From contig DASWNF010000014.1 in assembly GCA_036399335.1 (NCBI GenBank), positions 108,033 to 172,032 of the forward strand: a stretch of 64,000 nucleotides of DNA, given 5' to 3'. The position numbers were made by a program, and so were the translations under genes. Positions 5,098-29,685 of the stretch are shown one piece after another; positions within the stretch are counted from its first letter, which is position 1, and every line of letters starts with the position of its first letter. The notes under the pieces are model-generated. The model searched no databases. It was not told where the DNA came from and saw nothing but the letters and a program-made list of their open reading frames with translations. Origin of the DNA: Minisyncoccota bacterium. Lineage in GTDB: Bacteria; Patescibacteriota; Minisyncoccia; Phycocordibacterales; Phycocordibacteraceae.

Positions 5098-5123
5098 AGA
5101 TATAGAAACTATACCAATACTAA

Positions 5124-5996: not shown

Positions 5997-6005
5997 ATGG
6001 TCTGA

Positions 6006-14170: not shown

Positions 14171-15544
14171 TTAAACAAGGAGGCTGCGTATGTCCTGAAT
14201 CTCCTTCGCGAGTTCAGCATCGTTAACGATTTCCCGCTTCACTTTCTCGCACGAATGGATGACGGTCGTATGGTCGCGTCCGCCAAGCTTGCTGCCGATG
14301 GTCGGGTACGAGACGCTGAAGTCCTCACGGAGGATATACATGATGACCTGGCGAGGCCGCACCACTTCCCTGCGGCGGGTCTTCTCATAGATACTGTCTT
14401 CCTCAATGCCGTAGAACTCGGCGATCTTTGAGACGACATGTTTCACTGAGACGGTCTTGGTAGGCCGCGAGAATGAGCGGAGCGATTGGCGCACCTCGGC
14501 AAGGTCGGGCGGTATGCCCTTTACCTGCGTATGGCAGACAATCGAATTGATGACGCCCTCGAGCTCGCGAATAGAGCCTGATACGGAGGTCGCAATGAAC
14601 TCTACCGCCTCTTCAGCGAGCGTAATGCCTTGGGAAGCGAGCTTCTTCCGCACGATGGCAATACGGGATTCGGCGTCAGGCTCGCTGATATCGACCGTCA
14701 TGCCGCTCGCAAGGCGCCCGCGAAGGCGATCGGCGATATCAGGAATCGCTACCGGTGCCCTATCGGAGGAGAAGACGATCTGCTTGTTGTTGTCGTAGAG
14801 GGAGTTAAAGAGGTGGAAGAGCTCCTCCTGGAACTTGTCCTTCTTCGAGAAGAACTGGACGTCGTCGATGATGAGGAGGTCATACCCGCGGTACTTATCC
14901 TTAAAGCGGTTTGCCGTCCCGAGCTGGAGGGAGTCGGTGAACTCGTTTCCGAACCGGTCCGAGGTCAGGTAATAGACCTTCCGGGAGGGATAGAGCTTCT
15001 TGTACTGGTTCCCTATCGCCTGGATAAGGTGGGTCTTGCCGCGGCCGGTATCCCCGTAGATGAAGAGCGGGTTGTAGGTAATGCCGGGGCGATGAAGCGC
15101 TGCCTGGGCAGCCGTATAGGCGAGCTCGTTGAAGGGGCCGACGACGAAGGTGTCGAAGGTATAGCGCGGGTTGAGGTTGTCGCTCTTATTAATGTAGAAG
15201 TCGTTTAGCGGGAGCTCGGTGTTTGGCACCGGAGCGCGGCGTACTTCCTTGGGTTTTCGGGATGCGTCCTTCACTATCGTGTACTCGATATTGCGGTACT
15301 CGTATGAGACCCCACGCAAGATCTTGAGAAGGAGCGTGTGGAACTTCTTGAGGTACCAGTCGCGGAAGAACTGGCTCGGTACGCCGATGTAGACGATACC
15401 GTCCTCTATCTTCTGGATCGAACTCTCACGGAACCAGGTGTTGAAGTTGGCGGGCGAGATGGAGAGCTCGACCTGGGTGAGCATGAATTCCCATAACTCA
15501 TGCGGGTCAGAACGGTTAACAACGTTAGAAAGGGTGAGACTCAT
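14171..15544 (-). CDS. dnaA: chromosomal replication initiator DnaA
   Basis: 457 aa; AAA+ Walker A GDTGRGKTHL; C-terminal DNA-binding domain; canonical synteny. Confidence 0.95.
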   Translation of the reverse strand: MSLTLSNVVNRSDPHELWEFMLTQVELSISPANFNTWFRESSIQKIEDGIVYIGVPSQFFRDWYLKKFHTLLLKILRGVSYEYRNIEYTIVKDASRKPKEVRRAPVPNTELPLNDFYINKSDNLNPRYTFDTFVVGPFNELAYTAAQAALHRPGITYNPLFIYGDTGRGKTHLIQAIGNQYKKLYPSRKVYYLTSDRFGNEFTDSLQLGTANRFKDKYRGYDLLIIDDVQFFSKKDKFQEELFHLFNSLYDNNKQIVFSSDRAPVAIPDIADRLRGRLASGMTVDISEPDAESRIAIVRKKLASQGITLAEEAVEFIATSVSGSIRELEGVINSIVCHTQVKGIPPDLAEVRQSLRSFSRPTKTVSVKHVVSKIAEFYGIEEDSIYEKTRRREVVRPRQVIMYILREDFSVSYPTIGSKLGGRDHTTVIHSCEKVKREIVNDAELAKEIQDIRSLLV

Positions 15545-15818
15545 GCGCGCAGAAACGTATTACCTGATAAGAACCCGTATCCTGAATCGTAAGCGCGTAC
15601 TTTCTACCGGGGTTCATCGTTTCCAAAGTATACGCAGGTTTTTTCTTTAGTGAAGTTTTAGGGAATTTCTTACCCACCTGAGCGCAAGCTGTTATTAACC
15701 TGTGGATATCCTTAAATCCCGAGCCATGAATACCAGGTTTTATTGCCCCAAAACGTAATTTGTGGGAGAATGCTCGAAATTAACCATTCCCGACCTCAAA
15801 GCCGGATTTTAGAGATAT
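15545..15818. promoter_or_regulatory. rpmH-dnaA intergenic region with DnaA-box-like sites and an AT-rich stretch (candidate oriC or dnaA promoter region)
   Basis: TGTGGATAT (8/9 to TGTGGATAA) and TTACCCACC; A/T-rich segment near 15640-15700. Confidence 0.45.
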
Positions 15819-15971
15819 ATGCCTAAGCGAACGTACCAACCGAAGAAAAGGAAGCGCGCCCGAACCCACGGTTTCCTTGCCCGTACCGCGACCCCTGGAG
15901 GGCGCCGCGTGCTTCTTGCCCGCCGCCGCAAAGGACGCGCAAGCCTGACGGTTTCGAAGAAAGTAAGGTAA
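15819..15971 (+). CDS. rpmH: 50S ribosomal protein L34
   Basis: 50 aa [45 protein letters not shown]; not in the ORF track (<60 aa); directly upstream of rnpA. Confidence 0.9.
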
Positions 15972-15977
15972 TACGCC

Positions 15978-16304
15978 ATGTTTCCGCGTAAGCTTCGGCT
16001 TTCTCGTCGCGGTTTCGAGTCGGCTCGCGGCCTCAATAGGGCGGCGAGCCGTTACTTTTCTGTCTCCCACGGTCCCGCTCCCGAGGAAGGAGGTGCTGCC
16101 GTCGTAGTCTCAAAGAAGGTGGCGCGCCTCTCGGTTATGCGCCATCTCCTAAGGCGACGGGTCATGGCCGTCGCCCGCCCGTACGCGTCCCCCGAGCGAG
16201 CGCTTATCATCCATGTGCGTCCGGGTGCCGGGCAGGTGGCCTTCCCTCTGCTTCGGGATGAGCTTATTGGGCTATTACGGTCTATACTACCTGCACAACC
16301 ATAA
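15978..16304 (+). CDS. rnpA: RNase P protein component
   Basis: 108 aa basic protein; conserved rpmH-rnpA-yidC order. Confidence 0.85.
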   Translation: MFPRKLRLSRRGFESARGLNRAASRYFSVSHGPAPEEGGAAVVVSKKVARLSVMRHLLRRRVMAVARPYASPERALIIHVRPGAGQVAFPLLRDELIGLLRSILPAQP

Positions 16305-16313
16305 CGTCCCTCT

Positions 16314-17060
16314 ATGTTTTCTGCGTTTTTCCACAACTTCCTCTACGCCCCAATCTATAACCTGCTCGTATTCCTCGTAGGCCTCGTTCCTGGAGGAGAT
16401 GTCGGCCTTGCCGTCATCATCGCTACGGTCATCGTGAAGCTCATTATCATGCCGCTTTCCTTGCGCGCCGTACGGACGCAGCGCCAAATGAAGCTCATCG
16501 AGCCCCAGCTGAGGGCACTCAAGGAAACCCACAAGAATGACCGCGAGCGCCAGGCAAAGGAAATGCTTACGCTTTACCGTGAGCACAACATCCGCCCGTT
16601 CGCGAGCATCCTGGGCATCCTGATCCAGCTCCCTATAATCGTTGCGCTCTACTTCGTCTTTAGCCGTGAAGCGCTTCTTAATATTGATCCGTCGCTCCTC
16701 TATAGTTTCGTCGGCGTGCCGGAAACCATCTCTCCGCTCTTCCTCGGTACGTTCGTGGTCACCGGCTCAAGCGTTATCCTCGCCGTTCTCGCCGGCCTTG
16801 CACAGGCGGCACACGCCCGCCTATCCGTTCCTGTCCCAGACGCACCGGCAGCGGGAGCAGTGCGAAGCATGGGTGACGACTTCGGCCGGATCATGGCGAT
16901 GCAGGCGCGCTACATCCTCCCGGTTATCGTGGTGGTCATCGCCTACATAACCTCGGGCGCCGTTGCCCTCTATTTCATAACGAGCAGCCTGGTTGGCCTT
17001 CTCCAGGAGTGGGTGGTGCGAAGGATGAAGCATCCGGAGTCCCCTTCTTCGGCTGCGTAA
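16314..17060 (+). CDS. yidC: membrane protein insertase YidC (short, Gram-positive/Oxa1-like form)
   Basis: 248 aa; 5 TM helices; conserved after rnpA. Confidence 0.85.
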   Translation: MFSAFFHNFLYAPIYNLLVFLVGLVPGGDVGLAVIIATVIVKLIIMPLSLRAVRTQRQMKLIEPQLRALKETHKNDRERQAKEMLTLYREHNIRPFASILGILIQLPIIVALYFVFSREALLNIDPSLLYSFVGVPETISPLFLGTFVVTGSSVILAVLAGLAQAAHARLSVPVPDAPAAGAVRSMGDDFGRIMAMQARYILPVIVVVIAYITSGAVALYFITSSLVGLLQEWVVRRMKHPESPSSAA

Positions 17061-17113: not shown

Positions 17114-18340
17114 CTAGAGGTCGTAGAGCCAAAGCGCACCATTGTGCTTGTCGGTAAAAAGGAGGACGTCTTCGCCCGGGTCAGTCGTGAGGGCAATGGC
17201 GTCTATCGAGACGTCAGCGACTGCGCTCGGGTCGATAACGAGGGTCGCGAGGCGGTTGCCCATGTCGATTTCCCATATGCGGTCGGCGAACGTCACGGCT
17301 CCCTGGTACCAGAAGTCCGGCAGTCCGCGCGGCAGGCTCTTCGGCACGGCGCAGTACACGGAACCACTATCAGGTGCCCACGTACACTTCTCCGGTAAGG
17401 TAGCGACCGGAAGCGCCGTAGCCTGGCGCGTTGCCGTGTCGAAGACGGCAAGGCGAAGCGTGCCGCGGTCGATGTAGCTGTAGAGGACGAGGTTCCCCGC
17501 AGGGCTCGGAAGTATGGAGAGCCCGGCGAGCGGCCCTAGGATGCGGGTGAAGGCGCCGTTTGCGGTGCTGATGCGGAAGGCGTAGCCGCTCCGGAATACC
17601 GAAGCTTTCGTGTGCGCAAAGTAGTCGCCCTGGGTCGGGTGGACGATAATGGAGGAGAGGAGCGAGGTGAATAGCGTGCGGGCGTTCGTGCCGTCAGCGC
17701 GCGCGACCGAACCGACCGAACCGGCTGTGCCCGAAAGCATGGTAAAGAGCGTACTCGAGCCCACCGCCTGTGCCGCTGCCAGGTTTTGCTCGAGGAAGAA
17801 GCCCCCTTCCCCGCTCTCAGGGAGCACGTACGTTGCGACCTGCTCTGCGCCCGGCGTCCCGGCTGCGAAGCGCGCGTAGGCCATCGAGCCGCCAGGAAGC
17901 CATGAAACCCGTTGGACGCCCGGCAGGGTCTTGTTTGAAATGCGCACGAGGCTGCGTTCCTCTTTGAGGTAACGGTATATGTTGCCGCTCGCGCGGTCGA
18001 TGAAGCGGGCTTCCGTGTCGCGCACCTCGACCTCGACGAGGGCCGGCGTACCGGACGCCGTCTCGACGGTTTGGGTGGTCGTTGATATGCGCGGTATGGC
18101 AACCATGCCTTCGGCCACCGGCCGGTCCGTGATACGGATAAGGCGTGGTGCGAACTCGTCCCCTGCCCCGGAACTGATTTCAACAGGCCCCTCCTCGCTC
18201 ACGAGGCCGCTTCCCGTACCGCCGAACGGGTCGTCGGTTGCCGTAAGTTCACCCGAGTCGGCAAAGAGGAAGTATGCGCCGGCCACGAGCCCGAGGATGA
18301 CGATGATGCTCGCACTGATGATGAGTGTCCGTTTTCGCAT
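17114..18340 (-). CDS. membrane-anchored hypothetical protein, last gene of the T4SS-like operon
   Basis: Internal Met start gives an N-terminal TM helix (TLIISASIIVILGLVAGAYFLF); its start overlaps the stop of the upstream gene. Confidence 0.5.
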   Translation of the reverse strand: MRKRTLIISASIIVILGLVAGAYFLFADSGELTATDDPFGGTGSGLVSEEGPVEISSGAGDEFAPRLIRITDRPVAEGMVAIPRISTTTQTVETASGTPALVEVEVRDTEARFIDRASGNIYRYLKEERSLVRISNKTLPGVQRVSWLPGGSMAYARFAAGTPGAEQVATYVLPESGEGGFFLEQNLAAAQAVGSSTLFTMLSGTAGSVGSVARADGTNARTLFTSLLSSIIVHPTQGDYFAHTKASVFRSGYAFRISTANGAFTRILGPLAGLSILPSPAGNLVLYSYIDRGTLRLAVFDTATRQATALPVATLPEKCTWAPDSGSVYCAVPKSLPRGLPDFWYQGAVTFADRIWEIDMGNRLATLVIDPSAVADVSIDAIALTTDPGEDVLLFTDKHNGALWLYDL

Positions 18341-18342
18341 GC

Positions 18343-19359
18343 TTATGGCTCGCAACGCATGGTACCTGCGTAACACCTTGGAAGTGCGACTCCCACCGCG
18401 TCCCCGGGACAAAGGCTCGGATTTGCTGCTGCCCGTACCTTCCACGTGCCGCCGTCCGCGGTGCATGACTTCTGGAAGGCGAGGTAGCGCTCCTTGTCGC
18501 TTTCTCGGGGACCGTAGGTGCCAGTGTTCCCGGTCTTTTCAAGAGCGACGCTTGCCGTAAGTCCGCAATAGGCCGTGTATGCGGAACATCCGTCAGCATC
18601 GCAATCCCCCTTCCCTTTCGTGGTACAGGTTGTCGTGCACCCCTTACTCGTAGCGATGCCCTCATTCACCATAACCTTTGCCGTACATTGTGTGAGGAAG
18701 GTATCCAGCCCTGCCTTCGTGGGGAATACGCCCTTTTTAAGGGTCGTGCCGGTAACGGATCCGCTACCGAGCGATGTAATCGCATCCTGGCCACGTTTCT
18801 GCTCCGGTGTCTGCGGGATATCCGTAAGCGTGCGGCTTAATGACGAAAGGTCGAGCTTCAATTTCAGTATGTCAGGGTTTATGATGCCGAAAACGATAGC
18901 CGGGGAGAGCACCAGGAGAAGTCCGAGGAGTGAGCTTGAGATGAGGTGCTTCGCTTGTTCGTTATGCCCCACGCTGCCTTTATGGAACATGAAATATGCA
19001 CCCGCACGCATGATTTGGAGGACGGCAATGCCGGCTGCAATACCGATACAAAGGCGGTACAGGTAATTGAGGAAGTCGGGCAGAGTGTCTGGCTTTGACG
19101 CATCTTCAATGCCGGGAAGGTTCGTAAGCGGTACGAACTTATAATCGTCGCCCGTTGCCGCTGCGCCCGTTGCCGGGGTTTCGTCAGTTGCGGGCGGAGC
19201 CGCAGGATCGGCCGCCGGTTTTGGCGTTTCGTCAGTTGCAGGCGTCGCAGCTGCCGGTGCTTCCGTGGTAGGCTGCGCCTTCGTACCCTGGGCATGCAGT
19301 ACAAGCGGCATGCCGGCAACGAGAGCCGAGAGGATGAAGATAATGAGGTGCGTACGCAT
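18343..19359 (-). CDS. secreted/membrane protein with signal peptide, Pro/Thr-rich linker, two hydrophobic helices and a Cys-rich C-terminal domain (possible T4SS pilin-like component)
   Basis: Start at the internal Met MRTHLIIFILSALVAG (signal peptide); begins 2 nt after the stop of the upstream gene. Confidence 0.45.
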   Translation of the reverse strand: MRTHLIIFILSALVAGMPLVLHAQGTKAQPTTEAPAAATPATDETPKPAADPAAPPATDETPATGAAATGDDYKFVPLTNLPGIEDASKPDTLPDFLNYLYRLCIGIAAGIAVLQIMRAGAYFMFHKGSVGHNEQAKHLISSSLLGLLLVLSPAIVFGIINPDILKLKLDLSSLSRTLTDIPQTPEQKRGQDAITSLGSGSVTGTTLKKGVFPTKAGLDTFLTQCTAKVMVNEGIATSKGCTTTCTTKGKGDCDADGCSAYTAYCGLTASVALEKTGNTGTYGPRESDKERYLAFQKSCTADGGTWKVRAAANPSLCPGDAVGVALPRCYAGTMRCEP

Positions 19360-19363
19360 ATGG

Positions 19364-20350
19364 TTATAGGCCAAAGAAGCCGAGTGAGCTCTCGCCCTTG
19401 AACGTAATAGTAAGCCGCTGGCTCGCACTTTGTCCCGTATCGGGAACCTCGGCAAGTACTTGTACGAGTGCCGTCCCGCCCCTCGACCCCGAGGAGCGTA
19501 GAGTGATGTCCTGGTCATTGTCGCTTGCATCATCCCCCACGCTCCATGTGAGGAGTGGCCGGTCGGGGAAGAAGTACGGCACGGCACGGAAAGTTTCCTC
19601 CGTACCGACGAGTGCCGTATTTGCGGGGAGCGCCGTGCCGTACAGGGGGCCGAGTAGCGGGTCGTTGCGGTATACCCGGACGAACGGGTCGCTCGGCGCG
19701 ACAACGGTTGCCGCCTCAGCTACCACGGAACGGTCTTGGCTCGTCACCGTCACCGATATGCGCGCGTCGCGGTGCCTCACTGGGGCACTTGCCGAAAGTA
19801 CGGACTTCCCTATCCCGGATGCGCCCTGGAGGATCTGGTCGCCGTTCCGCCAGGTGTAGACCAAGCTTGCCGCAGGTATGGGCGCCCCTGAAGACGTGCG
19901 AAGGTCGGGGATGGCAACGAGACGGACGGCGCCTTCGGACGAGGTGAGCGCTCCTCCCTCATAGAAAGGATGCACCGTCGAATATGGCTCGACGACGAGT
20001 GCCACGTCCGCCGGGCGAATCGTCAGGCTCTTGGTGAAACTTTGGGCACCGGATGTCGCGCGTATGGTAATCGTGGTCACGGTGCCCGGGCCCCCGACGG
20101 TTACGTATGCGGGCTCCGCCCCGCTGCCTTCGGATACGACCGAGCCGTTTACGAGCACGGTCACTTTACTGGCGGAAAGGTCTATATACGTACTTTCCGG
20201 GATGATGGTCACGGTTTCATACGGCCGTGGGTACGACGGCATGATGGTTGCTGTAATCGGTTCGGTCCCAAGCATCTGCTGGGCCTGTGAGGCCGAGACT
20301 ATGCCGAAGCCTGCAGCGATAAGGAGCAGGGTCGCGAATGCACGCTTCAT
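19364..20350 (-). CDS. secreted hypothetical protein (328 aa)
   Basis: Signal peptide MKRAFATLLLIAAGFGIVSASQA; beta-rich composition. Confidence 0.55.
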   Translation of the reverse strand: MKRAFATLLLIAAGFGIVSASQAQQMLGTEPITATIMPSYPRPYETVTIIPESTYIDLSASKVTVLVNGSVVSEGSGAEPAYVTVGGPGTVTTITIRATSGAQSFTKSLTIRPADVALVVEPYSTVHPFYEGGALTSSEGAVRLVAIPDLRTSSGAPIPAASLVYTWRNGDQILQGASGIGKSVLSASAPVRHRDARISVTVTSQDRSVVAEAATVVAPSDPFVRVYRNDPLLGPLYGTALPANTALVGTEETFRAVPYFFPDRPLLTWSVGDDASDNDQDITLRSSGSRGGTALVQVLAEVPDTGQSASQRLTITFKGESSLGFFGL

Positions 20351-20404
20351 GCATACAGTATACCTGAGCGGCCCCGCAGCCGTTGCACCCTGCGGCGGAT
20401 AAGT

Positions 20405-21046
20405 TTACACGGCCTCGAGTTCGTCGGCCCGTTCGCGCCGCGCCGCGCCGTCCTTTGCGGTCGTAGGTACGCCCGGCCCGGGGGCTCTTGGCATGGGTGT
20501 CTTGGGGGCGTAGGAGTCGACCTTCGTCCAATCCTGGCGAGGGCGCGCTATAGGACGAGGCTCCGGTAGTGCGGCCCTCGATCCCTGTGGCTCCTCGGCT
20601 TCTCGTGCTTCTGGCATGCCTGCGGGTACGCGGCCGGATATCCTGGTCGGGAACATGCGGGTTTTTGCGGCCGCCTTTTCCTTAACCTCCTTTCTTTCTT
20701 TGGCTTTTTCGCGATCCTCCATACGCGTGCCTATGATCACGAGCGCGACTCCGAGCGTAAGCGCAGGAAGCGCGTTTACGATAGGGACGAGTTCCAATAC
20801 CGTACCGGTCATAATGCCCAGTACCTTGAGCCCCGCCTTCTTCCCCGTGAAGTAGTTGACCCCATCACAGAAGATGAACAGCCAAAGGGAGGCTATGAAT
20901 ATACCGATGAAGGTTACGCCTAAATTAATGACCTGTCCCAGGACAGGGATGAGGTTGATGAGGAACTGGACGCCGTCGAGAAAAAGTTCGACGGTAAGAA
21001 GGCTTATGGCTGAGGCGGTCCCTACGCGATACGTAACCTTATCCAT
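20405..21046 (-). CDS. polytopic membrane protein with Pro-rich C-terminal tail (T4SS-associated, unclassified)
   Basis: Four predicted TM helices; stop/start adjacent to the VirB4 C-terminal gene. Confidence 0.5.
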   Translation of the reverse strand: MDKVTYRVGTASAISLLTVELFLDGVQFLINLIPVLGQVINLGVTFIGIFIASLWLFIFCDGVNYFTGKKAGLKVLGIMTGTVLELVPIVNALPALTLGVALVIIGTRMEDREKAKERKEVKEKAAAKTRMFPTRISGRVPAGMPEAREAEEPQGSRAALPEPRPIARPRQDWTKVDSYAPKTPMPRAPGPGVPTTAKDGAARRERADELEAV

Positions 21047-21048
21047 GG

Positions 21049-22860
21049 CTACTCACTCCCATGCCGGTCTTTCTCGCGCTTGATGGCGAGGAGTTGCGAG
21101 GGGTCAGACGTAATGATCTGGTCTTCCGTGTATGAGGCGACGATTTTAATGGCGACATGCTTCATGCCGGCAAAGAATAGCCCCTCACCGACGTTTGATT
21201 CGAGAAGCAGGAACTTCTCTTCCTCGGTAAGGTTAAAGGTCTCTTGGAGCGTATCGATGACTGTTGGTGACTGCTTGAGCAGGAGCTGTATGGAGGAGTT
21301 GCTGAGGATAGGGCGACCGTACGGCGAACGGAGGAAGTCTTCCACGTCTTGGGTGATGGTGGCGAGCCCGAGGTAGTACTTACGTCCGCGCTTCGCAAGG
21401 CTGTAGAGGAAGGAGGCCGTGTCCTCCGACTTCATCATCCACCACGCCTCGTCGATGATAAGCAGGCGCTTCTTAAGCTCCTGGCGGACGGAGTTCCAGA
21501 TGTAGTGGGTAATGATGTACATCGCCACGGGCTTGAGCTCGTCTTCCATATCGCGCACCGAGAAAACGATGAACTGCTTCTTGATATCGATATTAGTCGG
21601 CTGGTTCAGGAAGCCCGACCAGGTACCGCGAGTGTATTTCGAGAGGCGGGTCACGAGCGATTCGCTGCCTTCCATGCCCGAGAGCACGCTTTCAAAGTCG
21701 GAAAGGAGCGGCGGCTCCATGCCGGTAAAGTCGGCATCGCCGGTAATGTCCTTGAGCGCATAGGTTTCGGTAATCGCGCGGTCGATGATGGCATCCTCTT
21801 CGGGGCTCAGCCCACCCAGCATGATGCGGAAAAGGCCGACGAGGTTAATGATGTTATTCCGCAGGATATCTGTCGGCTCTTCGTCTTCGCGCACGGGAGG
21901 GAGGTCGAACGGGTTGATGTGGTGCTCGCTCGAAAGCGAAATGTTGAACATGCGTCCGCCCGTTGCCTGGGCAAGGTACTCATACTCGCGCTCAGGGTCG
22001 ATGACGATGACCTCGGTGTCGAACATGAGCGAGCGCAAGATCTCGAGCTTCACGGCATAGGACTTCCCCGAACCCGACTTCGCAAAGACGACCGAGTTGT
22101 AGTTTTCGAGGGAGAACCGGTCAAACAGGATGAGCGACGAGTTGTGGCGGTTAATGCCGTAGAGGATGCCGCGGTCGCTCGAAAGGTCGAAGGAGACGAA
22201 GGGGAATATCGAAGAAAGCGGTGAAGAGTTCAGTTTTGAGTGGACGTTTAGCTCGTCGATGGCGAGCGGCAGGGTCGAGCGGAAACCCTGCTCCTGTTCA
22301 AAGAGCGCCGGCTTGGTATACACCAGCTTGGAGTCGAGGATACCGCGCACTTCGCCCTCGACCTTGTCGAGTTCTTCCTTCGTGCTCTCATAGAGGGTGA
22401 TATACAGGCCAACCTCGAAGAGGCGTTCCTGCGCCTGCTGCAGCGTGTCGCGCAAGTTCTCGAGGTCCTGGTACGCCGTGTCGAGCATCGGGTCGCGCAC
22501 GAGGCCTTTTTGTTCGCGCTCCATGATCTGGCTCTCGACTTCAGCGACCTTCTTCTGGAAATTGCGCAGCATGAGGCCGGTCTCAAGCGGATGGATGAAG
22601 ATGCCCACGTCGAAGACCTTGTCGAGGTTGATGATCGGCGTGAACCAGCCGTCGTTGAGGAAGCGAGGGTATGAAATGGTGTAGAACGAGCGGGCAATCT
22701 TCTCCCCGAGCTCGAGCTCGCGCGAAGCAACCTTGAGGGCGGCCGGGGCAATGGTATCGGCAAGGTCGAGCTTCCCTTCCGCATAGATGTCCTTCGGCAG
22801 GACCGGGGTAATTTTCACCTCGTCCTCCTTATTCCGGTTGAAAAAATCGAGTAGGGCCAT
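21049..22860 (-). CDS. VirB4/TrbE-family conjugal transfer ATPase, C-terminal ATPase part
   Basis: Walker A FAKSGSGKSY; Walker B LLIIDEAWWM; VirB4/CagE-like motifs; start MALLDFF lies 1 nt after the stop of the upstream N-terminal part. Confidence 0.8.
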   Translation of the reverse strand: MALLDFFNRNKEDEVKITPVLPKDIYAEGKLDLADTIAPAALKVASRELELGEKIARSFYTISYPRFLNDGWFTPIINLDKVFDVGIFIHPLETGLMLRNFQKKVAEVESQIMEREQKGLVRDPMLDTAYQDLENLRDTLQQAQERLFEVGLYITLYESTKEELDKVEGEVRGILDSKLVYTKPALFEQEQGFRSTLPLAIDELNVHSKLNSSPLSSIFPFVSFDLSSDRGILYGINRHNSSLILFDRFSLENYNSVVFAKSGSGKSYAVKLEILRSLMFDTEVIVIDPEREYEYLAQATGGRMFNISLSSEHHINPFDLPPVREDEEPTDILRNNIINLVGLFRIMLGGLSPEEDAIIDRAITETYALKDITGDADFTGMEPPLLSDFESVLSGMEGSESLVTRLSKYTRGTWSGFLNQPTNIDIKKQFIVFSVRDMEDELKPVAMYIITHYIWNSVRQELKKRLLIIDEAWWMMKSEDTASFLYSLAKRGRKYYLGLATITQDVEDFLRSPYGRPILSNSSIQLLLKQSPTVIDTLQETFNLTEEEKFLLLESNVGEGLFFAGMKHVAIKIVASYTEDQIITSDPSQLLAIKREKDRHGSE

Positions 22861-22861
22861 G

Positions 22862-23491
22862 TTATGCGAAATGAATAGGGTTTTCCATATCCCCCACGTT
22901 AAAGGAACGGTACAGGAGCTCAATAATCTCCTCGGTCCCGAGCGGCGCGGCGCGCACGCCCGCTGAGGCGAGCCCGTTCATGACCAATGACATGCGCTGC
23001 TCAAGCTGCACGCGGCTTTCTTCGAAGGAAGTGTCCTCGTTTGATTCACCCTTATCCTTTTTCCCGCTGAGGAAGGACAATCCGCTCGAGACCGATACCC
23101 CGCTCCCGCCCTCGTACGGGACGACGGCATAAAAGGTTTTCGTCATGATGTCCGCACCCTCGATGAAGTTGCGGATGAAGTTCGAGTACTCGCGCAGCTG
23201 CACGCGCATGAGTTCGCTTCCCTGGAGCGGCATACGCTCTTCGAGCAGGTTCAAGTACGGACGGATATCGGTTTTGCGTGAGTGGACGACAATCTGTACG
23301 GAGAAGTCGATGGTATTCAGGAACGTCTGGAAGCCGCCGATGATGGCGCGCTGCTCGTCTCCCGACTTGAGCGCGAAGTTGACCGACGAGCACATAAGGA
23401 TGCCGCGGTACCCGCCGCTCTTCAAAATGACGACGCCGCTGCGCACTTCTTCGACTGGCACGAATGACTGTGAAGCTTGGGAAGAAGGCAT
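22862..23491 (-). CDS. VirB4-family N-terminal domain protein (split VirB4, N-terminal part)
   Basis: ~209 aa resembling the N-terminal domain of TrbE/VirB4 (VILKSGGYRGILMCSSVNFALKS); TAA-C-ATG junction with the ATPase part. Confidence 0.6.
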   Translation of the reverse strand: MPSSQASQSFVPVEEVRSGVVILKSGGYRGILMCSSVNFALKSGDEQRAIIGGFQTFLNTIDFSVQIVVHSRKTDIRPYLNLLEERMPLQGSELMRVQLREYSNFIRNFIEGADIMTKTFYAVVPYEGGSGVSVSSGLSFLSGKKDKGESNEDTSFEESRVQLEQRMSLVMNGLASAGVRAAPLGTEEIIELLYRSFNVGDMENPIHFA

Positions 23492-23492
23492 A

Positions 23493-23903
23493 TTACGTGG
23501 TTGGGGCACCTGGGTTCTGGTCCTTAATATCAAGCGACCAGGCGAGCTCCTTCAGCTTTCCTTGGGTAAGTACGAGCTTTTCCCGCACCGGGGCTACGGG
23601 CGCCGCTACAGGCGCTGCCTCATGCTCCTGCTTCTTCCAGAGGTAGAGGCGGTCTTTTGTGTAGAAGGTAATGGCCGCCTCGATGATGTCGACGAAGCTC
23701 TTGTTGTTGATTTTATAAAAAGCGAGCGCTCCTGAGAATGCGGCCACGGGCAGCGCGAGCACGATGCCGACCATGAGCGGCAAGGAAAGCACGAGTATGG
23801 CGCACAAGCCGATGCCGCCGGCAAGATAGATGAATTGTTTGAGTGAAAGAGGACCGAATATCTTGTCCTCAACTTCAATGAACTGCGGCACCTGGTACTC
23901 CAT
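23493..23903 (-). CDS. PrgI/VirB3-like small membrane protein
   Basis: 136 aa with two TM helices, sitting directly upstream of VirB4 as in Gram-positive T4SS. Confidence 0.5.
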   Translation of the reverse strand: MEYQVPQFIEVEDKIFGPLSLKQFIYLAGGIGLCAILVLSLPLMVGIVLALPVAAFSGALAFYKINNKSFVDIIEAAITFYTKDRLYLWKKQEHEAAPVAAPVAPVREKLVLTQGKLKELAWSLDIKDQNPGAPTT

Positions 23904-23934
23904 AAACAGTAGTATACCGCACGCCTACCGACCC

Positions 23935-24810
23935 TTACTCGATGGCTTCGCGGTAGGGGTCGCTTCCGTACTCTTTCGTAATGGGCGTGTTCTCATACGT
24001 CCGGTCGATCGGCGTCAGGCGTACGGGCGCGAGCGCGGGAGGCGCATATGCAGACTCCGGATATGTCGGTGCGGGCTGGGACTGGGGCGCCGGTGGAGGC
24101 GGAGGTGCGTAGGTAACGGGCACCGACGCCGTCTGGAACGAGCGCGCAGGGCTTGCTGCCTGGCCTTCGAGGCCTTGGGAGGCGAGCTGCATGTCCCCGG
24201 CCATGGTACGCGCATGGGGATAGGTAGGAACCGGTACGTTCATATATATAGGAGCGCTCGCCGGTGCAGGCGTATATACCGGTACCGGCGGTGTCGGTAG
24301 AGGTGCGGGAGCCGGTGTCGGTGCGGCTACCGGCGGCGGCATGGGCTGATGTGGCCGTTGAGGTACCGGTTCCGCGGGCGTGCTCGCGGCAGGAGGTTTA
24401 GGTGGCTCCATACCCTCTCCCACCGCCATAGGTGGTACGGCAGGGCTTGGCCGACGCGGCGGCTCGGGCGTCGCAGGCCCGACGCGCTCCTCATCACGGA
24501 GCTTCTTGAACACCTGATCGTTTACGTCGGCCGTAAGGCTCCTAATGGTCGCGTCGTCAATGCCCCCCTCGCGGAGCGCACCCACGAATTCGTCGGGCGA
24601 GTATACGCCAAGCAGCATGAATATGTATGCGCGCTCGAAGGCCCCGGCGGCGTCAGCATGAAGGCTATGTTTCTGCGACAAACGCAACGAAACCGCATCG
24701 CGTTCCGGACTGCGCAAGAAATTCTGTATCGCAGGCGGAAGCTCCTCCATGAGGAGCTCGACTTGGTCACTGATACTTGTCGTTGAGACGTCGATCTCTT
24801 CTTCGGGCAT
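23935..24810 (-). CDS. proline-rich hypothetical protein (291 aa)
   Basis: Long PxP/PPPP low-complexity tracts; member of the T4SS-like operon. Confidence 0.5.
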   Translation of the reverse strand: MPEEEIDVSTTSISDQVELLMEELPPAIQNFLRSPERDAVSLRLSQKHSLHADAAGAFERAYIFMLLGVYSPDEFVGALREGGIDDATIRSLTADVNDQVFKKLRDEERVGPATPEPPRRPSPAVPPMAVGEGMEPPKPPAASTPAEPVPQRPHQPMPPPVAAPTPAPAPLPTPPVPVYTPAPASAPIYMNVPVPTYPHARTMAGDMQLASQGLEGQAASPARSFQTASVPVTYAPPPPPAPQSQPAPTYPESAYAPPALAPVRLTPIDRTYENTPITKEYGSDPYREAIE

Positions 24811-24837
24811 AGTTTCATATTACACGAGGGTGACTAC

Positions 24838-27285
24838 TTAGTGGTCGGCTTTGTCATGGCCGTGGTCGTCACCGTGGTCGTCACCGTGCCCGTCTTCCTT
24901 GTCGGCTGCCTTTGTCGCGCGTTCGGCGTGCTCTTTTATCTCATGCGTATCCTTGCCTGACTTCGCTATCTCACCCTTAAGTTCGTCGAAGAGCTTCTCG
25001 GACTTCGATTTCTTCATCTCTTTCTTGATCGCTTCATACGCATGGTGGCGCGCACGACCCTTGGCGGTGATAGAGGTTCCACTCGACTCATGCAAATCGT
25101 TAGCGTACCGGGTCATTGGCGCTTTCTTCGCCTTCTCTATGTTCGCTTCAGCATCCTTTATGTCCTTATCGAAGTCCTTCATCGCCTGGTCGTGGTCTTT
25201 CTGCCGGTCGGCGATCGCTTCCTGCCTATTCCGTATGTCATCGCGTTCTTTCGTCGCTGTGGCGCGGTGCACCTCAAGGAGGGCGTTAAGGGCCTCTTGT
25301 TCGCGCTCTACTGCGGCCCTCCGGGCCGCTTGAATTTCCGGCTTGTCGTCATCAGCCTCTGCCGCCGCATTCGCAGCCGCGTTCAACTGCGCCATTTGGG
25401 CTTCACGCTGCGCCGCGCGCGTCTTCTCGATTTCCGCATACTCGTCCTTGAGCTTGTTCGCCGCCTTCTCCATGGTTCGCTTCTCGTCTGCCCAAGTCTT
25501 TTGTGCTGTTTCTTTCTTGGTGCCAATTGTTTCCTTTTTCTGCTCGTAGTGAGTTTGGATGGCTTTGTCGTCATCAGTCTGCTTGAGCGACTTCGCGTAC
25601 TTCACGCGAGCTTCTTCGCCGTGATGGACCAGGTCTGCATACCCGCCCTTATGGGCCTTACCAAGATCTCCCACCTGCTTACCGAGCGTTCCACCGAGTG
25701 CGGTAGCACGGAAGTCGAAACTCGCCTTACCGCCGTAATCAGCGATGCTGGCCATACGGTAACCCATCTCAGTGTGCCCCCAGTCTGTTGCGCGGATGCG
25801 CTCGCTTGCCTTCGAGGCGGCCCGGCCGACGGTCCTCCGTCCCATGAAGCCCATGGCGCCTATGCTGGTTTTTCCTGCAGTCGCTATCGCAAACGACGCC
25901 CCGGCCGCACCGAATTTTCGTGCAGCCGCTAGTGAGGCCAGGAGGAAGCCGATGACGAGCGCGTATATGAGAATGACGCCCATCATGCCGGTCTTGCCCG
26001 TCGTGAGTGCCTGCATTAAGGAGCCTCGGGTGCCCATGCCTGCAAGCCCGTCGGTAATTTTAAGGCTGATGAGCATGAGGAGGAGCATCACCGGAGCGAA
26101 GAACGACTGGTTGATGAGGTTATGCCACCACTGCTCGCCAATCTTCCGGAGTGGCGGTATTGCCATACCGGCAAAGCCTATAGGTGCGGTGACCATAAGG
26201 AAGGTAAGGGTCACTGCGCGGATGATGAGCATGATAGACGCGCCGAAAAGTACGCCAGCGGCAATAAACGCTAGGATGGTAGTCGCGAGGAGTGACGTCG
26301 TGCTTATGTCGAATATGCTTTCGTCATTCCTGAATAGGGAAGAAATTCCCGTACTCTCCATAATGTGGGCGGAAATTCCATAGTTAATGGCGCATCCTTG
26401 CTCACTCTTCCCGTCCTCAGAAATACCACCGATCTCGCTCCCGGCATTAACGTCGTCCGAAAAACACGGGTCAGTATTCGCCTGGTTGTATACGACGGAG
26501 CTTAGGCCGTTCGCCGTGTCGATTACCGCCTCTGCGGCAAACAGGCTGAAGTTCATGAGTACGGCAAAGATAATGAGGAAAGGAAGCGTCTTCTTTGCCG
26601 GGTACGAGTGGAGGTCGAGGATGGTCGAGATCCCGATGAATATGAAGCCGAAGAGGAGGAGCATGTTCCCGATGTCCCGGAGGATCGTCCATGCGGCAAG
26701 GAGCCCCTCGGAGTTCCCGATAAGCGTGGAGAACTGGAAGACGGTCTTCAAGATGACCCAGTTAAAGAGGATGCCGGAAATACCCAGTAGGAAGGTCGCA
26801 AACGTAAGCGCAATGCCGGCCATGCCGCGCGCAAGACAGTTCGGCCAACTCGATGGGTCTGTTGCCGAACAACCGTCTCCCTCCGGTGGTGCTCCTTGCG
26901 CGGTGGAAGTAATAGTCATCTCGCCGGTCACTGAGTCATCCGCTACCTTAACGACGGCACCGCCCGTCGGAATTTCCGTGCTCGACGCACCTACGGGAGT
27001 CCCGGCAGCGTCCTTCACGGCGCATGAAGTTGATGGCGCCATGTCCGGCAAGGGAGAAGGTGAGGATACGCACGTTTCCGTATTTCCATTCGCCTCCTTA
27101 CACTCTACAGTCGTGGCTCCGGATAATGCGCTTGTCGTACTTACGCATTGCCGTCCCTTGTCGTCCGTAAAACGTGTTTGGGCATTACTGATATAAGGCA
27201 CGAGTACGAAAAAGACGGCAATTAAGGCAACCCAAAGCGTGCTTTTCGTTACACTGCTCCTAGGTAGGGTGAGGAATCTAGGCAT
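24838..27285 (-). CDS. large polytopic membrane protein, VirB6/TrbL-like, with C-terminal charged coiled-coil and HGDDHGDDHGHD tail
   Basis: ~815 aa from the internal Met MPRFLTLP; signal/TM, then at least 6 TM helices, then a K/E/D-rich coiled coil; position typical of VirB6 in PrgI-VirB4 clusters. Confidence 0.55.
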   Translation of the reverse strand: MPRFLTLPRSSVTKSTLWVALIAVFFVLVPYISNAQTRFTDDKGRQCVSTTSALSGATTVECKEANGNTETCVSSPSPLPDMAPSTSCAVKDAAGTPVGASSTEIPTGGAVVKVADDSVTGEMTITSTAQGAPPEGDGCSATDPSSWPNCLARGMAGIALTFATFLLGISGILFNWVILKTVFQFSTLIGNSEGLLAAWTILRDIGNMLLLFGFIFIGISTILDLHSYPAKKTLPFLIIFAVLMNFSLFAAEAVIDTANGLSSVVYNQANTDPCFSDDVNAGSEIGGISEDGKSEQGCAINYGISAHIMESTGISSLFRNDESIFDISTTSLLATTILAFIAAGVLFGASIMLIIRAVTLTFLMVTAPIGFAGMAIPPLRKIGEQWWHNLINQSFFAPVMLLLMLISLKITDGLAGMGTRGSLMQALTTGKTGMMGVILIYALVIGFLLASLAAARKFGAAGASFAIATAGKTSIGAMGFMGRRTVGRAASKASERIRATDWGHTEMGYRMASIADYGGKASFDFRATALGGTLGKQVGDLGKAHKGGYADLVHHGEEARVKYAKSLKQTDDDKAIQTHYEQKKETIGTKKETAQKTWADEKRTMEKAANKLKDEYAEIEKTRAAQREAQMAQLNAAANAAAEADDDKPEIQAARRAAVEREQEALNALLEVHRATATKERDDIRNRQEAIADRQKDHDQAMKDFDKDIKDAEANIEKAKKAPMTRYANDLHESSGTSITAKGRARHHAYEAIKKEMKKSKSEKLFDELKGEIAKSGKDTHEIKEHAERATKAADKEDGHGDDHGDDHGHDKADH

Positions 27286-27289
27286 GTGT

Positions 27290-28696
27290 TTATGTCTCGC
27301 ACGAAGCGGCAAGGCGTCTCATTTCTGAATAGAAACTGCCGGGGCGTGCGTCTCCAGTGTCTGCTGCTTCCACTTCGCCTTGGGCGAGCGCGCTTAAACC
27401 GCGCATAAGCGCCTGGAAACGACTGACAAGCGCATTTACGGCAACAGGGTCGTTCGCGCCCGAGGTAACCATCGCATTCTTATCGGTTTCTATCCGGTCG
27501 AGTTCGGCAAGCGTACGGTTCGCCTCGGCAAGCCGCTCGGTTGCGCGTCCGTATATGGCATCTGCTGCCTCACGGTCTCCGCCGGTGCACCGTTGTCGGG
27601 CAGCGTTGGCTGCGTCGGCGATGCGCTGCCAGTCCGCCCGGTATTTCGTAACCTGGCTCCGCACGTCCCGGATGCCTTCCGTAAACCCGGAGCTGAGGCT
27701 CGCTGAGAAATCAGTCGCACTACTGAGGAACGAGCGGCCACCTCCGCTCGTAGGCTCGGACACTCCTGAAAGCCCGTTCCCGCCAAGGACCTTGCCCACC
27801 ATCTGGGTCATAAGGGCTCCGACTATCTCATTTATGGAATCTGCGACCTCGAGTTGCCGCAAGGGCGAGTTGACGGTGATGCCAAGAGTTTCTTCAATCA
27901 TCGCGCCTGGAGTTCGGATACTGCATTTGGCATTCGGCTCCTTCTGTTGTAGCGAAACCTTATTATTGGCGACAGATTTGCCGCCTGCAGTCGTTGCGCT
28001 GGCAGCGGACTTGTTGGCTGCGGCGATGGTCTTAGCCGGATCTGCATTCGGCCCGCACGGACCGCGCCATGAAAGGAAGCCGTTGCCCCAACCGAGTTCG
28101 GTCATCCGGGTCTCAAGCTGTTTGTCGACTTCTGCAAAGAGTTCCCGGCGTGCGAGCTGGTACCTGCCGTACGGGTTGTTTGCCGGGTTCTGGCTCTCGC
28201 ACATCCATCCATCAAGCGAGAAGTCCCCGCCGCCGTAGCAGTCGCGATACGGGTGCCGCGCATCAAATCCGTAGCTGCTCGTTGTGCGGTAGAACTCATC
28301 GCGGAGCGCATTGCGGAGTTGGTCCTGGAACGGTGCGCGTATGGAAAGGCCGGTGTTGTCGACGGCGACCTTGTCGAGGCCATAGATGAAGTCATCGGCA
28401 ATGGTGTCGGCAAGGTTCCCGAGGTTGCGGTTTAAATCGGTTACGAAGGCGGGCGAACCCTGGAAACCAGAGTTTATCCACGTAACAATGCTCTGGGTCA
28501 TCGACTGGATGATGGTTTTCGCAGCCATCCATGCGGCAGCGTCGAGCACCTGTTCAAGGAGGCGCGGCGCGTCGCCGACGATAGCTACGGGGAGGGCGTG
28601 CGCCTTCGGGGTTACGGGAGCGTACGGTGCGTACGCGAAAGATGCCACGAGAATGGTGCACGCCACACCTGCGAATGTTTTCTTTAAGGTGTTCAT
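27290..28696 (-). CDS. secreted hypothetical protein (468 aa)
   Basis: Signal peptide; start overlaps the upstream gene stop by 4 nt (ATGA). Confidence 0.55.
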   Translation of the reverse strand: MNTLKKTFAGVACTILVASFAYAPYAPVTPKAHALPVAIVGDAPRLLEQVLDAAAWMAAKTIIQSMTQSIVTWINSGFQGSPAFVTDLNRNLGNLADTIADDFIYGLDKVAVDNTGLSIRAPFQDQLRNALRDEFYRTTSSYGFDARHPYRDCYGGGDFSLDGWMCESQNPANNPYGRYQLARRELFAEVDKQLETRMTELGWGNGFLSWRGPCGPNADPAKTIAAANKSAASATTAGGKSVANNKVSLQQKEPNAKCSIRTPGAMIEETLGITVNSPLRQLEVADSINEIVGALMTQMVGKVLGGNGLSGVSEPTSGGGRSFLSSATDFSASLSSGFTEGIRDVRSQVTKYRADWQRIADAANAARQRCTGGDREAADAIYGRATERLAEANRTLAELDRIETDKNAMVTSGANDPVAVNALVSRFQALMRGLSALAQGEVEAADTGDARPGSFYSEMRRLAASCET

Positions 28697-29685
28697 TGCT
28701 CTTGTTCGCGACGCACGGTGTCGACAATATAGAACCCGGGATTCCCCGGTAGCGGTTCACCCTGAAGAATCACTTCTCCGGCAATTTGGTCGAACGAGAG
28801 AAGGATATCGGTTCGTGCGGGGAGGAGTACCGAGAGCGCTCCCATCGTGAGGAGGGGGTCAGTCTTGTACGTGCTTACGGCCTTAGCTGCACGCCCCGCT
28901 TGTTCGAAGGCGCGCACGAGACGGAGGTGGCTTTCGACGAGTCCCGGGGGCGCAGGAACGGCGAGAAGCGCGCGCGCCGCGGCGAGGTATTGTCCGCCGA
29001 GGACATCAAGCCGTTCGGCTGCGGCCTCGTCGCCCTGCTCTATGACCGCTTGGGTAAGGAGGAACATGTCCGAGTTAGGTGCCGTGGGAATAGCAATATC
29101 GAGCGCCCGTTCCACATTGCCCGCATAGGTCGTTGCTGAGCCGAAGGCGTCAGTGCGCATCGATACCCGTGTGTACGAGGACGTAAGGGAGGCTGCCGCC
29201 TTGCGGGTGAACTCACCGAGGAGCTTCGTTACGACCGCCTCTTTAGAGGAATCATCGAGGGGCTCCCCGGTATTTGCGCGCATGTACTCCTCAAAGAACG
29301 ACCGTGAGAATTGCTCCGTGAAGCTTCCCGGTGCCGGCGGTTCGCCGGGGATGTCTTCGGTCGCCGCGTTGTTTGTCGGGAGTTCAGCAGCGAGCGAAAC
29401 CGGCGTTAGGAGCCCTTGGCGTACCGCCTCTCCGTCCGTAATGCCGTCGCCGTCCGTATCCGCAGTATTGCTGTCGGTGCCGTACAGCACTTCTTGCCAG
29501 TCGGGAAGCTTGTCGTTGTCCGTGTCTTTTGCGACGTAATCAGCAAGGAGTTCGTCAGTCAGTGCGGCGTTAACCGTCTTAGTATTCGGCGCACCGATAC
29601 CCGGGAGAACATACCCTCCTACGACAAGAAGCAGGGCAATAAGTGATGCTCCACCGATGCGCACATTTCGTGAAGATATGGGCAT
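28693..29685 (-). CDS. membrane-anchored protein with Ca-binding-like DxDxDG repeats, first gene of the operon
   Basis: N-terminal TM; DTDNDKLPDW and DTDGDGITDGEA motifs. Confidence 0.5.
   Translation of the reverse strand: MPISSRNVRIGGASLIALLLVVGGYVLPGIGAPNTKTVNAALTDELLADYVAKDTDNDKLPDWQEVLYGTDSNTADTDGDGITDGEAVRQGLLTPVSLAAELPTNNAATEDIPGEPPAPGSFTEQFSRSFFEEYMRANTGEPLDDSSKEAVVTKLLGEFTRKAAASLTSSYTRVSMRTDAFGSATTYAGNVERALDIAIPTAPNSDMFLLTQAVIEQGDEAAAERLDVLGGQYLAAARALLAVPAPPGLVESHLRLVRAFEQAGRAAKAVSTYKTDPLLTMGALSVLLPARTDILLSFDQIAGEVILQGEPLPGNPGFYIVDTVRREQEQ

What the first reader, a model, noticed from the sequence alone, without database searches (positions are those of the whole stretch)
21049..23491. 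VirB4 ATPase split into two adjacent translationally coupled genes
The N-terminal VirB4 domain (22862..23491) ends with TAA and the ATPase part starts one nucleotide later (TAAcATG). The upstream PrgI-like gene likewise abuts the N-terminal part. VirB4 is normally a single ~800-aa polypeptide, so this is either a genuine split, a programmed recoding event, or a point mutation or assembly error.
Basis: seen in the sequence. Interest (0 to 1): 0.55.

Follow-up and report, generated by a model that had tools for sequence, protein, structure and literature searches.

The report
Two-gene VirB4 (TrsD-like plus ATPase)
The secretion-system motor VirB4 is really encoded here as two adjacent genes, but this is the normal, conserved and already published arrangement (TrsD-like protein plus short VirB4) in this group of ultra-small bacteria, not an error or a recoding signal.

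Summary
On the minus strand a 209-aa gene (22862-23491) ends in TAA, and one base later the ATG of a 603-aa VirB4 ATPase gene (21049-22860) follows. The upstream PrgI/VirB3-like gene abuts in the same way (TAAtATG). The two products are collinear, non-overlapping pieces of one VirB4. They match positions 4-119 and 183-733 of one NCBIfam VirB4 model, and residues 1-213 and 226-796 of a naturally fused 797-aa relative. The split is not a mutation, an assembly error or a recoding site. In 79 of 79 species-representative genomes the two genes are separate, with gaps of -4 to 496 nt, in all three relative frames, and sometimes with another gene inserted between them. The window comes from a Candidatus Paceibacterota (Patescibacteria/CPR) chromosome, and the cluster lies next to yidC-dnaA-dnaN. 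The arrangement is the TrsD + TrsE/VirB4 layout of staphylococcal plasmids pGO1/pSK41. It was reported in 2025 as the most abundant T4SS component set in Patescibacteria (PMC12102498), and Pfam already models the domain (PF26593, TraC-like). One modest addition: an orthologous locus in Ca. Colwellbacteria carries the fused form. Verdict: real, ordinary for this lineage, already known; low interest.

The parts
23493..23903 (-). PrgI/VirB3-like small membrane protein (136 aa, 2 TM-like segments), first gene of the PrgI -> N-part -> ATPase triplet
   Evidence: Pfam PrgI PF12666, E 5.3e-10, above cutoff. TM scan. A PrgI gene sits in the same position in Colwellbacteria, Clostridium and Geobacillus loci.
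23489..23495 (-). Junction 1: TAA stop of the PrgI-like gene, one base, then ATG of the N-part (TAAtATG)
   Evidence: Read directly from the sequence.
22862..23491 (-). TrsD-like / 'TraC-like' protein (209 aa, soluble). It corresponds to the first ~175-210 residues of a full-length VirB4.
22858..22864 (-). Junction 2: TAA stop of the N-part, one base, then ATG of the ATPase gene (TAAcATG). The downstream frame is +1 relative to the upstream frame.
   Evidence: Read directly from the sequence. Comparable junctions occur in 79 species, with a gap of 6 nt or less in 55 of 79.
21049..22860 (-). N-terminally short VirB4-family ATPase (603 aa, soluble). It holds the second half of the VirB4 N-terminal domain plus the P-loop motor domain.
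   Evidence: NCBIfam conju_CD1110 scores 377.7 bits (cutoff 325), model positions 183-733. Pfam P-loop_TraG 2.3e-26, AAA_10 and DUF87. PDB 4ag5 VirB4 1.5e-44; TrwK 287-734. 56% identity to P0243 residues 226-796. BLASTP to pSK41 TrsE 3e-35, starting at residue 32 against 33.
22060..22083 (-). Walker A motif AKSGSGKS (C-part residues 260-267)
   Evidence: Motif located. It lies inside the P-loop_TraG/AAA_10 match.
21442..21465 (-). Walker B-type motif LLIIDEAW (C-part residues 466-473)
   Evidence: Motif located.

Best explanation
This is a genuine, evolutionarily conserved two-gene form of the VirB4 motor of a chromosomal type IV secretion system in a Candidatus Paceibacterota (Patescibacteria/CPR) bacterium. 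Gene 1 (209 aa) encodes a soluble TrsD-like/'TraC-like' protein equivalent to the first ~175-210 residues of VirB4. Gene 2 (603 aa) encodes the rest: the second half of the N-terminal domain plus the P-loop ATPase domain. Several things are shown here. The two products are collinear, complementary pieces of one VirB4. The split lies at the same point in every relative examined. The genes are independent cistrons. A naturally fused orthologue exists at the same chromosomal locus in another Patescibacteria lineage. The following is inferred. The two polypeptides assemble non-covalently to rebuild a VirB4-like subunit that docks on the PrgI/VirB3-like membrane protein encoded immediately upstream. 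The compact TAAnATG junctions, with no Shine-Dalgarno motif, would help make PrgI, the N-part and the ATPase in matched amounts by termination-reinitiation. The whole machine is the Patescibacteria T4SS that was found essential for epibiotic growth in Southlakia epibionticum.
For: Complementarity. The N-part matches positions 4-119 and the C-part positions 183-733 of the same NCBIfam VirB4 model. The N-part aligns to residues 1-213 and the C-part to residues 226-796 of the fused P0243. The C-part has no N-part-like domain of its own. The AF2 model of the fused orthologue aligns with full-length TrwK/VirB4 (TM 0.64, E 6e-28, ~850 columns).

Conservation. There are 1509 hits, and the best 120 are all 207-222 aa. 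Of the 150 best 50%-identity representatives, 149 are stand-alone. In 79 of 79 GTDB species loci there is a stop followed by a separate ATG-initiated ATPase gene.

Independent cistrons. All three relative frames occur, and gaps range from -4 to 496 nt. A 23S_rRNA_IVP gene is inserted between the two in L055.

Same layout elsewhere. pSK41 has trsC-trsD(227 aa)-trsE(672 aa). Clostridium and Geobacillus megaplasmids show the same order.

Fused orthologue at the same locus. Ca. Colwellbacteria has ksgA ... PrgI - VirB4(778 aa) ... yidC-dnaA-dnaN, against the window's ksgA ... PrgI - N - C ... yidC-dnaA-dnaN.

Literature. TrsD homologues are the most abundant T4SS component in Patescibacteria, are mostly next to virB4, and are essential in S. 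epibionticum ML1 (PMC12102498; PMC10633639).
Confidence: 0.9

Rival explanations
1. The stop codon is a nonsense or frameshift mutation, or a sequencing/assembly error, in a gene that is normally a single ~800-aa VirB4. This copy would then be a pseudogene or an artefact.
For: Fused 775-807-aa forms do exist in related Patescibacteria. The junction is only one base away from continuity.
Against: The same two-gene layout, split at the same point, is found in 79 of 79 species-representative genomes from independent assemblies and in more than 1500 protein clusters. The downstream gene always has its own conserved ATG and N-terminus. Both halves are well conserved: 70-82% identity for the N-part among its best hits and up to 93% for the C-part. 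That fits purifying selection on two separate proteins.
Confidence: 0.01
2. Programmed recoding (+1 frameshift or stop-codon bypass) joins the two ORFs into one full-length VirB4 during translation.
For: In this window the downstream frame stays open for 116 nt upstream of the stop, so a +1 shift there would yield a fused protein.
Against: Across relatives the relative frame is 0, +1 or +2 (22/37/20). The overlap of the open downstream frame is often only 4-8 nt. Gaps reach ~500 nt, and in some loci another gene sits in between. No conserved slippery motif is seen at the junctions listed. Many N-part homologues end in long low-complexity tails, which fits free-standing proteins.
Confidence: 0.02
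3. The 209-aa protein is an independent accessory factor that only descends from the VirB4 N-terminus. It might be a chaperone-like adaptor or a regulator, and it would not act as a structural part of the ATPase subunit.
Against: The ATPase gene lacks exactly the segment that the small protein supplies. The natural fusion at the orthologous locus folds as a complete VirB4. Adjacency and order are almost invariant.
Confidence: 0.07

Closest known systems
TrsD + TrsE (TraD + TraE) of staphylococcal conjugative plasmids pGO1/pSK41 (MPF_FATA, pGO1 subclass)
   Same: The gene order is the same: small membrane protein (TrsC / PrgI-like), then a ~210-230-aa soluble protein, then a ~600-670-aa DUF87/VirB4 ATPase. 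The ATPases begin at the same point (window residue 32 against TrsE residue 33, BLASTP 3e-35). The small proteins align over their full length in profile comparison (E 5.8e-5).
   Different: Similarity of the small protein is very remote (17% identity), and the NCBIfam TrsD model does not detect it. The window system is chromosomal, next to the replication origin, with no relaxase or coupling protein seen in the cluster. It belongs to a CPR bacterium, not to a conjugative plasmid of Bacillota.
Patescibacteria chromosomal T4SS as described by Quinonero-Coronel et al. 2025 (PMC12102498) and Wang et al. 2023 (PMC10633639)
   Same: The components match (PrgI/VirB3, TrsD homologue, VirB4, a polytopic VirB6-like candidate, pilin-like proteins), and the location is near dnaA/dnaN/ksgA. 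The paper counts 2,272 TrsD homologues, 1,664 of them next to virB4, with Paceibacteria the best-represented class.
   Different: There is no essential difference; the window is one more instance. The paper calls the small protein 'TrsD' with remote homology to the VirB4 N-terminus. In the text searched here it does not discuss split versus fused forms.
Canonical single-chain VirB4/TrwK/TraC (~800 aa), e.g. R388 TrwK (PDB 7O41, 8RTD)
   Same: Together the two window proteins cover the whole VirB4 architecture. The fused Patescibacteria orthologue models as a full-length TrwK-like fold (TM 0.64).
   Different: Here the first ~175-210 residues are a separate polypeptide. Sequence identity to TrwK is ~14-16%.
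Fused VirB4 of Candidatus Colwellbacteria (P0243, P0342 and more than 110 relatives, 775-807 aa)
   Same: The locus is orthologous (ksgA ... PrgI - VirB4 ... yidC - dnaA - dnaN). Identity is 56% over the ATPase part and 37% over the N-part.
   Different: It is a single chain with a ~12-residue linker, where the window has a stop, one base and a new start.

Membership tests
VirB4-family T4SS ATPase (C-part, 21049-22860) | Match to a curated VirB4 model above its cutoff | tested here: met
   NCBIfam NF045971 conju_CD1110 scores 377.7 bits against a cutoff of 325. Pfam P-loop_TraG scores 92.9 bits against a cutoff of 25.8. PDB VirB4 4ag5, E 1.5e-44.
VirB4-family T4SS ATPase (C-part, 21049-22860) | Walker A and Walker B NTPase motifs | tested here: met
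   AKSGSGKS at residues 260-267 and LLIIDEAW at residues 466-473.
VirB4-family T4SS ATPase (C-part, 21049-22860) | Complete N-terminal domain in the same polypeptide (~800 aa) | tested here: not met
   The C-part starts at about model position 183 of 752, roughly TrwK residue 175. The missing segment is supplied by the separate 209-aa product.
VirB4-family T4SS ATPase (C-part, 21049-22860) | VirB3/PrgI-like gene immediately upstream of the VirB4 coding region | tested here: met
   A Pfam PrgI gene (E 5.3e-10) lies directly upstream of the N-part.
TrsD/TraD family (N-part, 22862-23491) | Match to NCBIfam NF041427 TrsD above cutoff (200 bits) | tested here: not met
   No hit at E <= 0.01. The model does recognise pSK41 TrsD at 227.6 bits.
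TrsD/TraD family (N-part, 22862-23491) | Detectable homology to a bona fide TrsD | tested here: inconclusive
   hhalign of family alignment A2 against pSK41 TrsD gives probability 66% and E 5.8e-5, collinear over 174 columns. The paper reports TrsD-HMM hits across Patescibacteria, but that HMM was not run here.
TrsD/TraD family (N-part, 22862-23491) | ~200-230-aa soluble protein encoded between the VirB3-like gene and a short VirB4 gene | tested here: met
   209 aa, no TM segment, position PrgI -> N -> C. pSK41 has the same layout.
Pfam PF26593 'TraC-like' domain (N-part) | Pfam match | tested here: met
   The precomputed Pfam hit PF26593 is recorded for the identical protein P0001 and for all 120 best homologues. 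The local Pfam copy appears to lack this model, because it returned nothing.
N-terminal segment of VirB4 (N-part) | Collinear homology to the N-terminus of full-length VirB4 proteins | tested here: met
   P0243 residues 1-213, E 1e-42. NCBIfam VirB4 models match at their N-terminal positions. The fused form folds as full-length TrwK.
Patescibacteria origin-proximal T4SS | Chromosomal cluster near dnaA/dnaN/ksgA with PrgI, TrsD-like, VirB4, VirB6-like and pilin-like genes | tested here: met
   The contig context shows ksgA upstream and yidC-dnaA-dnaN downstream. There is a polytopic 661-aa protein. The T4SS_pilin match is only weak (E 3e-4, below cutoff), so the pilin component is tentative.
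Programmed ribosomal frameshift / readthrough site | Conserved frame relation and conserved shift/bypass signal at the junction | tested here: not met
   Relative frames are 37/22/20, gaps run from -4 to 496 nt, all three stop codons occur, and no common motif is seen.
Pseudogene / assembly artefact | Relatives fused, with an isolated disruption in this copy | tested here: not met
   79 of 79 species loci are split at the same point. The fused forms are confined to one clade.

The most novel reading that the evidence does not exclude
The two-gene state may be ancestral for the Patescibacteria T4SS and shared with pGO1-type, Bacillota-megaplasmid and haloarchaeal systems. Ca. Colwellbacteria would then have secondarily re-fused the genes. 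A free-standing N-domain protein could also take on lineage-specific roles: it carries 100-230-aa disordered tails in many lineages and is fused to a different partner in haloarchaea. It might work as a separately dosed adaptor between PrgI/VirB3 and the motor. That would make the VirB4 N-terminus an exchangeable module. In a crude neighbour-joining tree the fused clade sits deep inside the diversity of split forms, but that tree is too weak to settle the direction of change.
Probability: 0.3. Interest if true: 0.35.

Novelty: already known. Interest (0 to 1): 0.15.

Why it matters
For annotation, the two ORFs should be kept as separate genes (a TrsD-like/TraC-like protein and VirB4). They should not be merged, flagged as a pseudogene or marked as a frameshift. 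Biologically, the pair belongs to the Patescibacteria T4SS, the only T4SS known to be essential for its bearer's growth. A naturally fused orthologue gives a simple way to design experiments on what the free N-terminal module does. As a discovery the split adds little, because the TrsD/VirB4 pair and its prevalence in Patescibacteria are already published.

Tried and rejected
1. The local Pfam scan of the N-part returned nothing. The local copy seems to lack PF26593, which the precomputed tables assign.

2. A profile search of the N-part family against PDB sequences gave no hit at E <= 1.

4. A literature search for the phrase 'split VirB4' returned no papers. The relevant literature uses the name TrsD.

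5. Guglielmini 2014 (PMC4027160), which the 2025 paper cites for the TrsD-VirB4 homology, does not mention TrsD in its main text. The pNP40 paper (PMC8194271) has a fused-type TraE and was not informative.

6. The neighbour-joining trees of the N-domain are crude: distance-based, 218 columns, with depth used as a proxy for nesting. I use them only as a hint about the direction of change, fusion versus fission.

7. A complex prediction of the N-part with the C-part was not attempted, because the structure tool folds single chains of window or database sequences only.

Full report
**Observation.** All genes concerned are on the minus strand. A 209-aa ORF starts at ATG 23491 and ends with TAA at 22864-22862. 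One base (c, 22861) separates that stop from ATG 22860, which opens a 603-aa ORF ending at 21049. The upstream 136-aa ORF (23493-23903) ends with TAA at 23495-23493, and one base (t) later the 209-aa ORF begins. The description in the finding is therefore accurate. Both ATG starts are supported by homologues. M1 is invariant in the N-part alignment, and the ATPase orthologues align from residue 1 at a conserved ATG. The longer TTG-initiated ORFs in the mechanical ORF list (22862-23533 and 21049-22923) are not needed.

**What the two products are.**
- The 603-aa protein is a VirB4-family ATPase.
  - It scores 377.7 bits on NCBIfam conju_CD1110 (cutoff 325), and it matches Pfam P-loop_TraG, AAA_10 and DUF87.
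  - It matches PDB VirB4 4ag5 at 1.5e-44 and TrwK at 5e-8.
  - It carries Walker A (AKSGSGKS) and Walker B (LLIIDEAW) motifs.
  - Its matches begin at model position 183 of 752, and its residues 112-550 align to TrwK 287-734. It therefore lacks roughly the first 175 residues of a canonical VirB4.
- The 209-aa protein matches the N-terminal positions of the same models (conju_CD1110 positions 4-119, E 7e-5; VirB4_plasma positions 102-196, E 1e-5).
- An identical database protein (P0001) and all its close relatives carry the precomputed Pfam domain PF26593 'TraC-like'.
- The strongest evidence is a natural fusion. P0243 (797 aa) aligns to the window's N-part over residues 1-213 (37% identity, E 1e-42) and to the C-part over residues 226-796 (56% identity).
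- The AlphaFold model of that fused protein superposes on full-length TrwK/VirB4 of plasmid R388 (TM 0.64, E 6e-28, about 850 alignment columns).
- The C-part has no N-part-like domain of its own.

The two window genes are thus complementary pieces of one VirB4. The break lies inside the VirB4 N-terminal domain, not between that domain and the motor domain.

**Error, recoding or real.**
- A search with the N-part found 1509 protein clusters. The best 120 are all 207-222 aa and come from Candidatus Paceibacterota/Parcubacteria.
- A profile search of 1.84 billion representatives found 3077 relatives. Of the best 150, 149 are stand-alone and one is fused. Those of 280-443 aa carry low-complexity P/Q/T/E tails, not ATPase sequence.
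- I fetched 80 loci from species-representative genomes and analysed the junction in the 79 that contain both genes. None is fused.
  - Every N-part ends in a stop (TAA 57, TAG 12, TGA 10), followed by a separate ATG-initiated ATPase gene.
  - The gap is 1 nt in 18 loci, 2 nt in 11 and 3 nt in 9. It is 6 nt or less in 55 loci, more than 30 nt in 12, and 421-496 nt in 5.
  - The three relative reading frames occur 37, 22 and 20 times.
- In the long-gap loci another gene is inserted: an intact 23S_rRNA_IVP four-helix-bundle gene in L055 (Pfam 2e-38) and a degraded copy in L042.

This variability rules out a conserved frameshift or readthrough mechanism. The conservation of the break point rules out a mutation or assembly error.

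**Context.**
- The window is part of a 314-kb contig of a Ca. Paceibacterota MAG.
- The cluster order is ksgA, three unannotated genes (330, 468 and 661 aa; the last has about 7 TM-like segments and is a VirB6-like candidate), a short stretch with ambiguous gene calls (23935-24810), the PrgI-like gene, the N-part, the ATPase, and four more genes (one with a weak T4SS_pilin match). Then come yidC, dnaA and dnaN.
- In Ca. Colwellbacteria the orthologous locus (ksgA ... PrgI - VirB4 ... yidC - rnpA - dnaA - dnaN) carries a single 778-aa VirB4 with PF26593 at its N-terminus. More than 110 such fused proteins of 775-807 aa were found.
- Outside Patescibacteria the order PrgI -> N-part homologue -> DUF87 ATPase occurs on Clostridium perfringens and Geobacillus megaplasmids. 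A haloarchaeal plasmid has the domain at the C-terminal end of a 1075-aa protein upstream of its ATPase.

**Comparison with what is known.**
- pSK41 encodes trsC (135 aa), trsD (227 aa, 'TrsD/TraD family') and a 672-aa DUF87 ATPase (TrsE) in this order.
- The window ATPase aligns with TrsE from residue 32 against 33, so the two share the same N-terminal truncation.
- The N-part family profile aligns with TrsD over 174 columns (E 5.8e-5, probability 66%). The curated NCBIfam TrsD model does not detect the window protein.
- Quinonero-Coronel et al. [quoted passage not shown] They count 2,272 homologues, 1,664 of them next to virB4. They note that it is essential in Southlakia epibionticum ML1, and that these T4SS loci lie near dnaA/dnaN/ksgA.
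- Wang et al. 2023 (PMC10633639) showed that this T4SS is essential for epibiotic growth.

The window is therefore one more instance of a published arrangement. What the searched text of that paper does not discuss is that fused and split forms coexist at orthologous loci within Patescibacteria.

**Mechanism.**
- Shown: there are two independent cistrons that encode complementary parts of VirB4, directly downstream of a two-TM PrgI/VirB3-like protein, and both are soluble.
- Inferred from the R388 structures and from the fused orthologue: the 209-aa protein binds the ATPase to complete its N-terminal domain, and it helps dock the motor on PrgI/VirB3 at the membrane.
- Also inferred: the TAAnATG junctions and the absence of Shine-Dalgarno motifs upstream of these genes fit termination-reinitiation, which would give matched amounts of the three proteins. 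This is untested and cannot be obligatory, since some species have long gaps.

**Direction of evolution.** In a crude neighbour-joining tree of the N-domain, rooted on Bacillota homologues, the fused proteins form one small clade nested deep within the split forms. The clade lay at least 7 nodes from the root in all 60 bootstrap replicates. This hints that the fusion in Colwellbacteria is secondary, but the method is too weak for a firm claim.

**Verdict.** Recoding and error are rejected. The arrangement is conserved, ordinary for the lineage and already described as TrsD + VirB4, so interest is low.

Noticed in passing
L055 4738-5109; L042 4677-5052; also L039, L074, L076 (gap between the two genes): In 5 of 79 species a 420-500-nt insert separates the TrsD-like gene from virB4. 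In L055 it is an intact 123-aa 23S_rRNA_IVP four-helix-bundle gene (Pfam 2e-38). In L042 it is a frameshifted copy flanked by a hairpin at the upstream stop codon. The other three inserts were not inspected.
   Followed up: partly
P0132, P0137, P0156, P0157, P0172, P0177, P0208, P0222, P0225 (homologues of window 22862-23491): Many stand-alone N-part homologues carry 100-230-aa low-complexity P/Q/T/E-rich C-terminal tails. The window protein and the fused forms lack them.
   Followed up: partly
L084 (Salinibaculum sp. KK48 plasmid NZ_CP129994) 3559-6786 and 6828-9359: In a haloarchaeal plasmid the N-part-like domain is the C-terminal end of a 1075-aa protein with no Pfam match. It lies directly upstream of an 843-aa DUF87/P-loop_TraG ATPase, so the domain has a different fusion partner here.
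   Followed up: partly
L082 (C. perfringens pJFP838A), L083 (Geobacillus pGspE55-1); 197 plasmid records: The triplet PrgI -> N-part homologue (312-318 aa) -> DUF87 ATPase occurs on many Bacillus, Clostridium and Paenibacillus megaplasmids. 176 of the 197 records are typed 'non-mobilizable'. In the two loci inspected the triplet lies next to sigma-70 and TlpA genes, which suggests a T4SS-like module that may not serve conjugation.
   Followed up: no
L086 8001-10337 (Ca. Colwellbacteria); P0289, P0385: A fused 778-aa VirB4 sits at the orthologous origin-proximal locus. Within this fused clade two ~600-aa members (88% and 77% identical to P0243) lack the N-domain. They could be repeated fission events or fragmentary gene calls.
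   Followed up: partly
window 23935-24810: Gene calls are ambiguous between the 661-aa membrane protein and the PrgI-like gene. One reading is a 291-aa minus-strand ORF. The public calls instead give an 89-aa minus-strand gene (23935-24204) plus a 145-aa plus-strand gene (24349-24786). None of these has a Pfam match.
   Followed up: no
window 17114-29685 (operon starts): Most genes of the cluster have no Shine-Dalgarno-like motif in the 30 nt upstream of their ATG. Several are separated by only 1-4 nt.
   Followed up: partly
window 12828-17060: yidC (16314-17060, +), dnaA (14171-15484, -) and dnaN (12828-13928, -) lie immediately beside the T4SS cluster, so the cluster is next to the probable replication origin. 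The literature reports this for Paceibacteria.
   Followed up: partly
window 2001-6000 and 42001-46000: G+C drops to about 0.50, against 0.56-0.62 elsewhere in the window.
   Followed up: no
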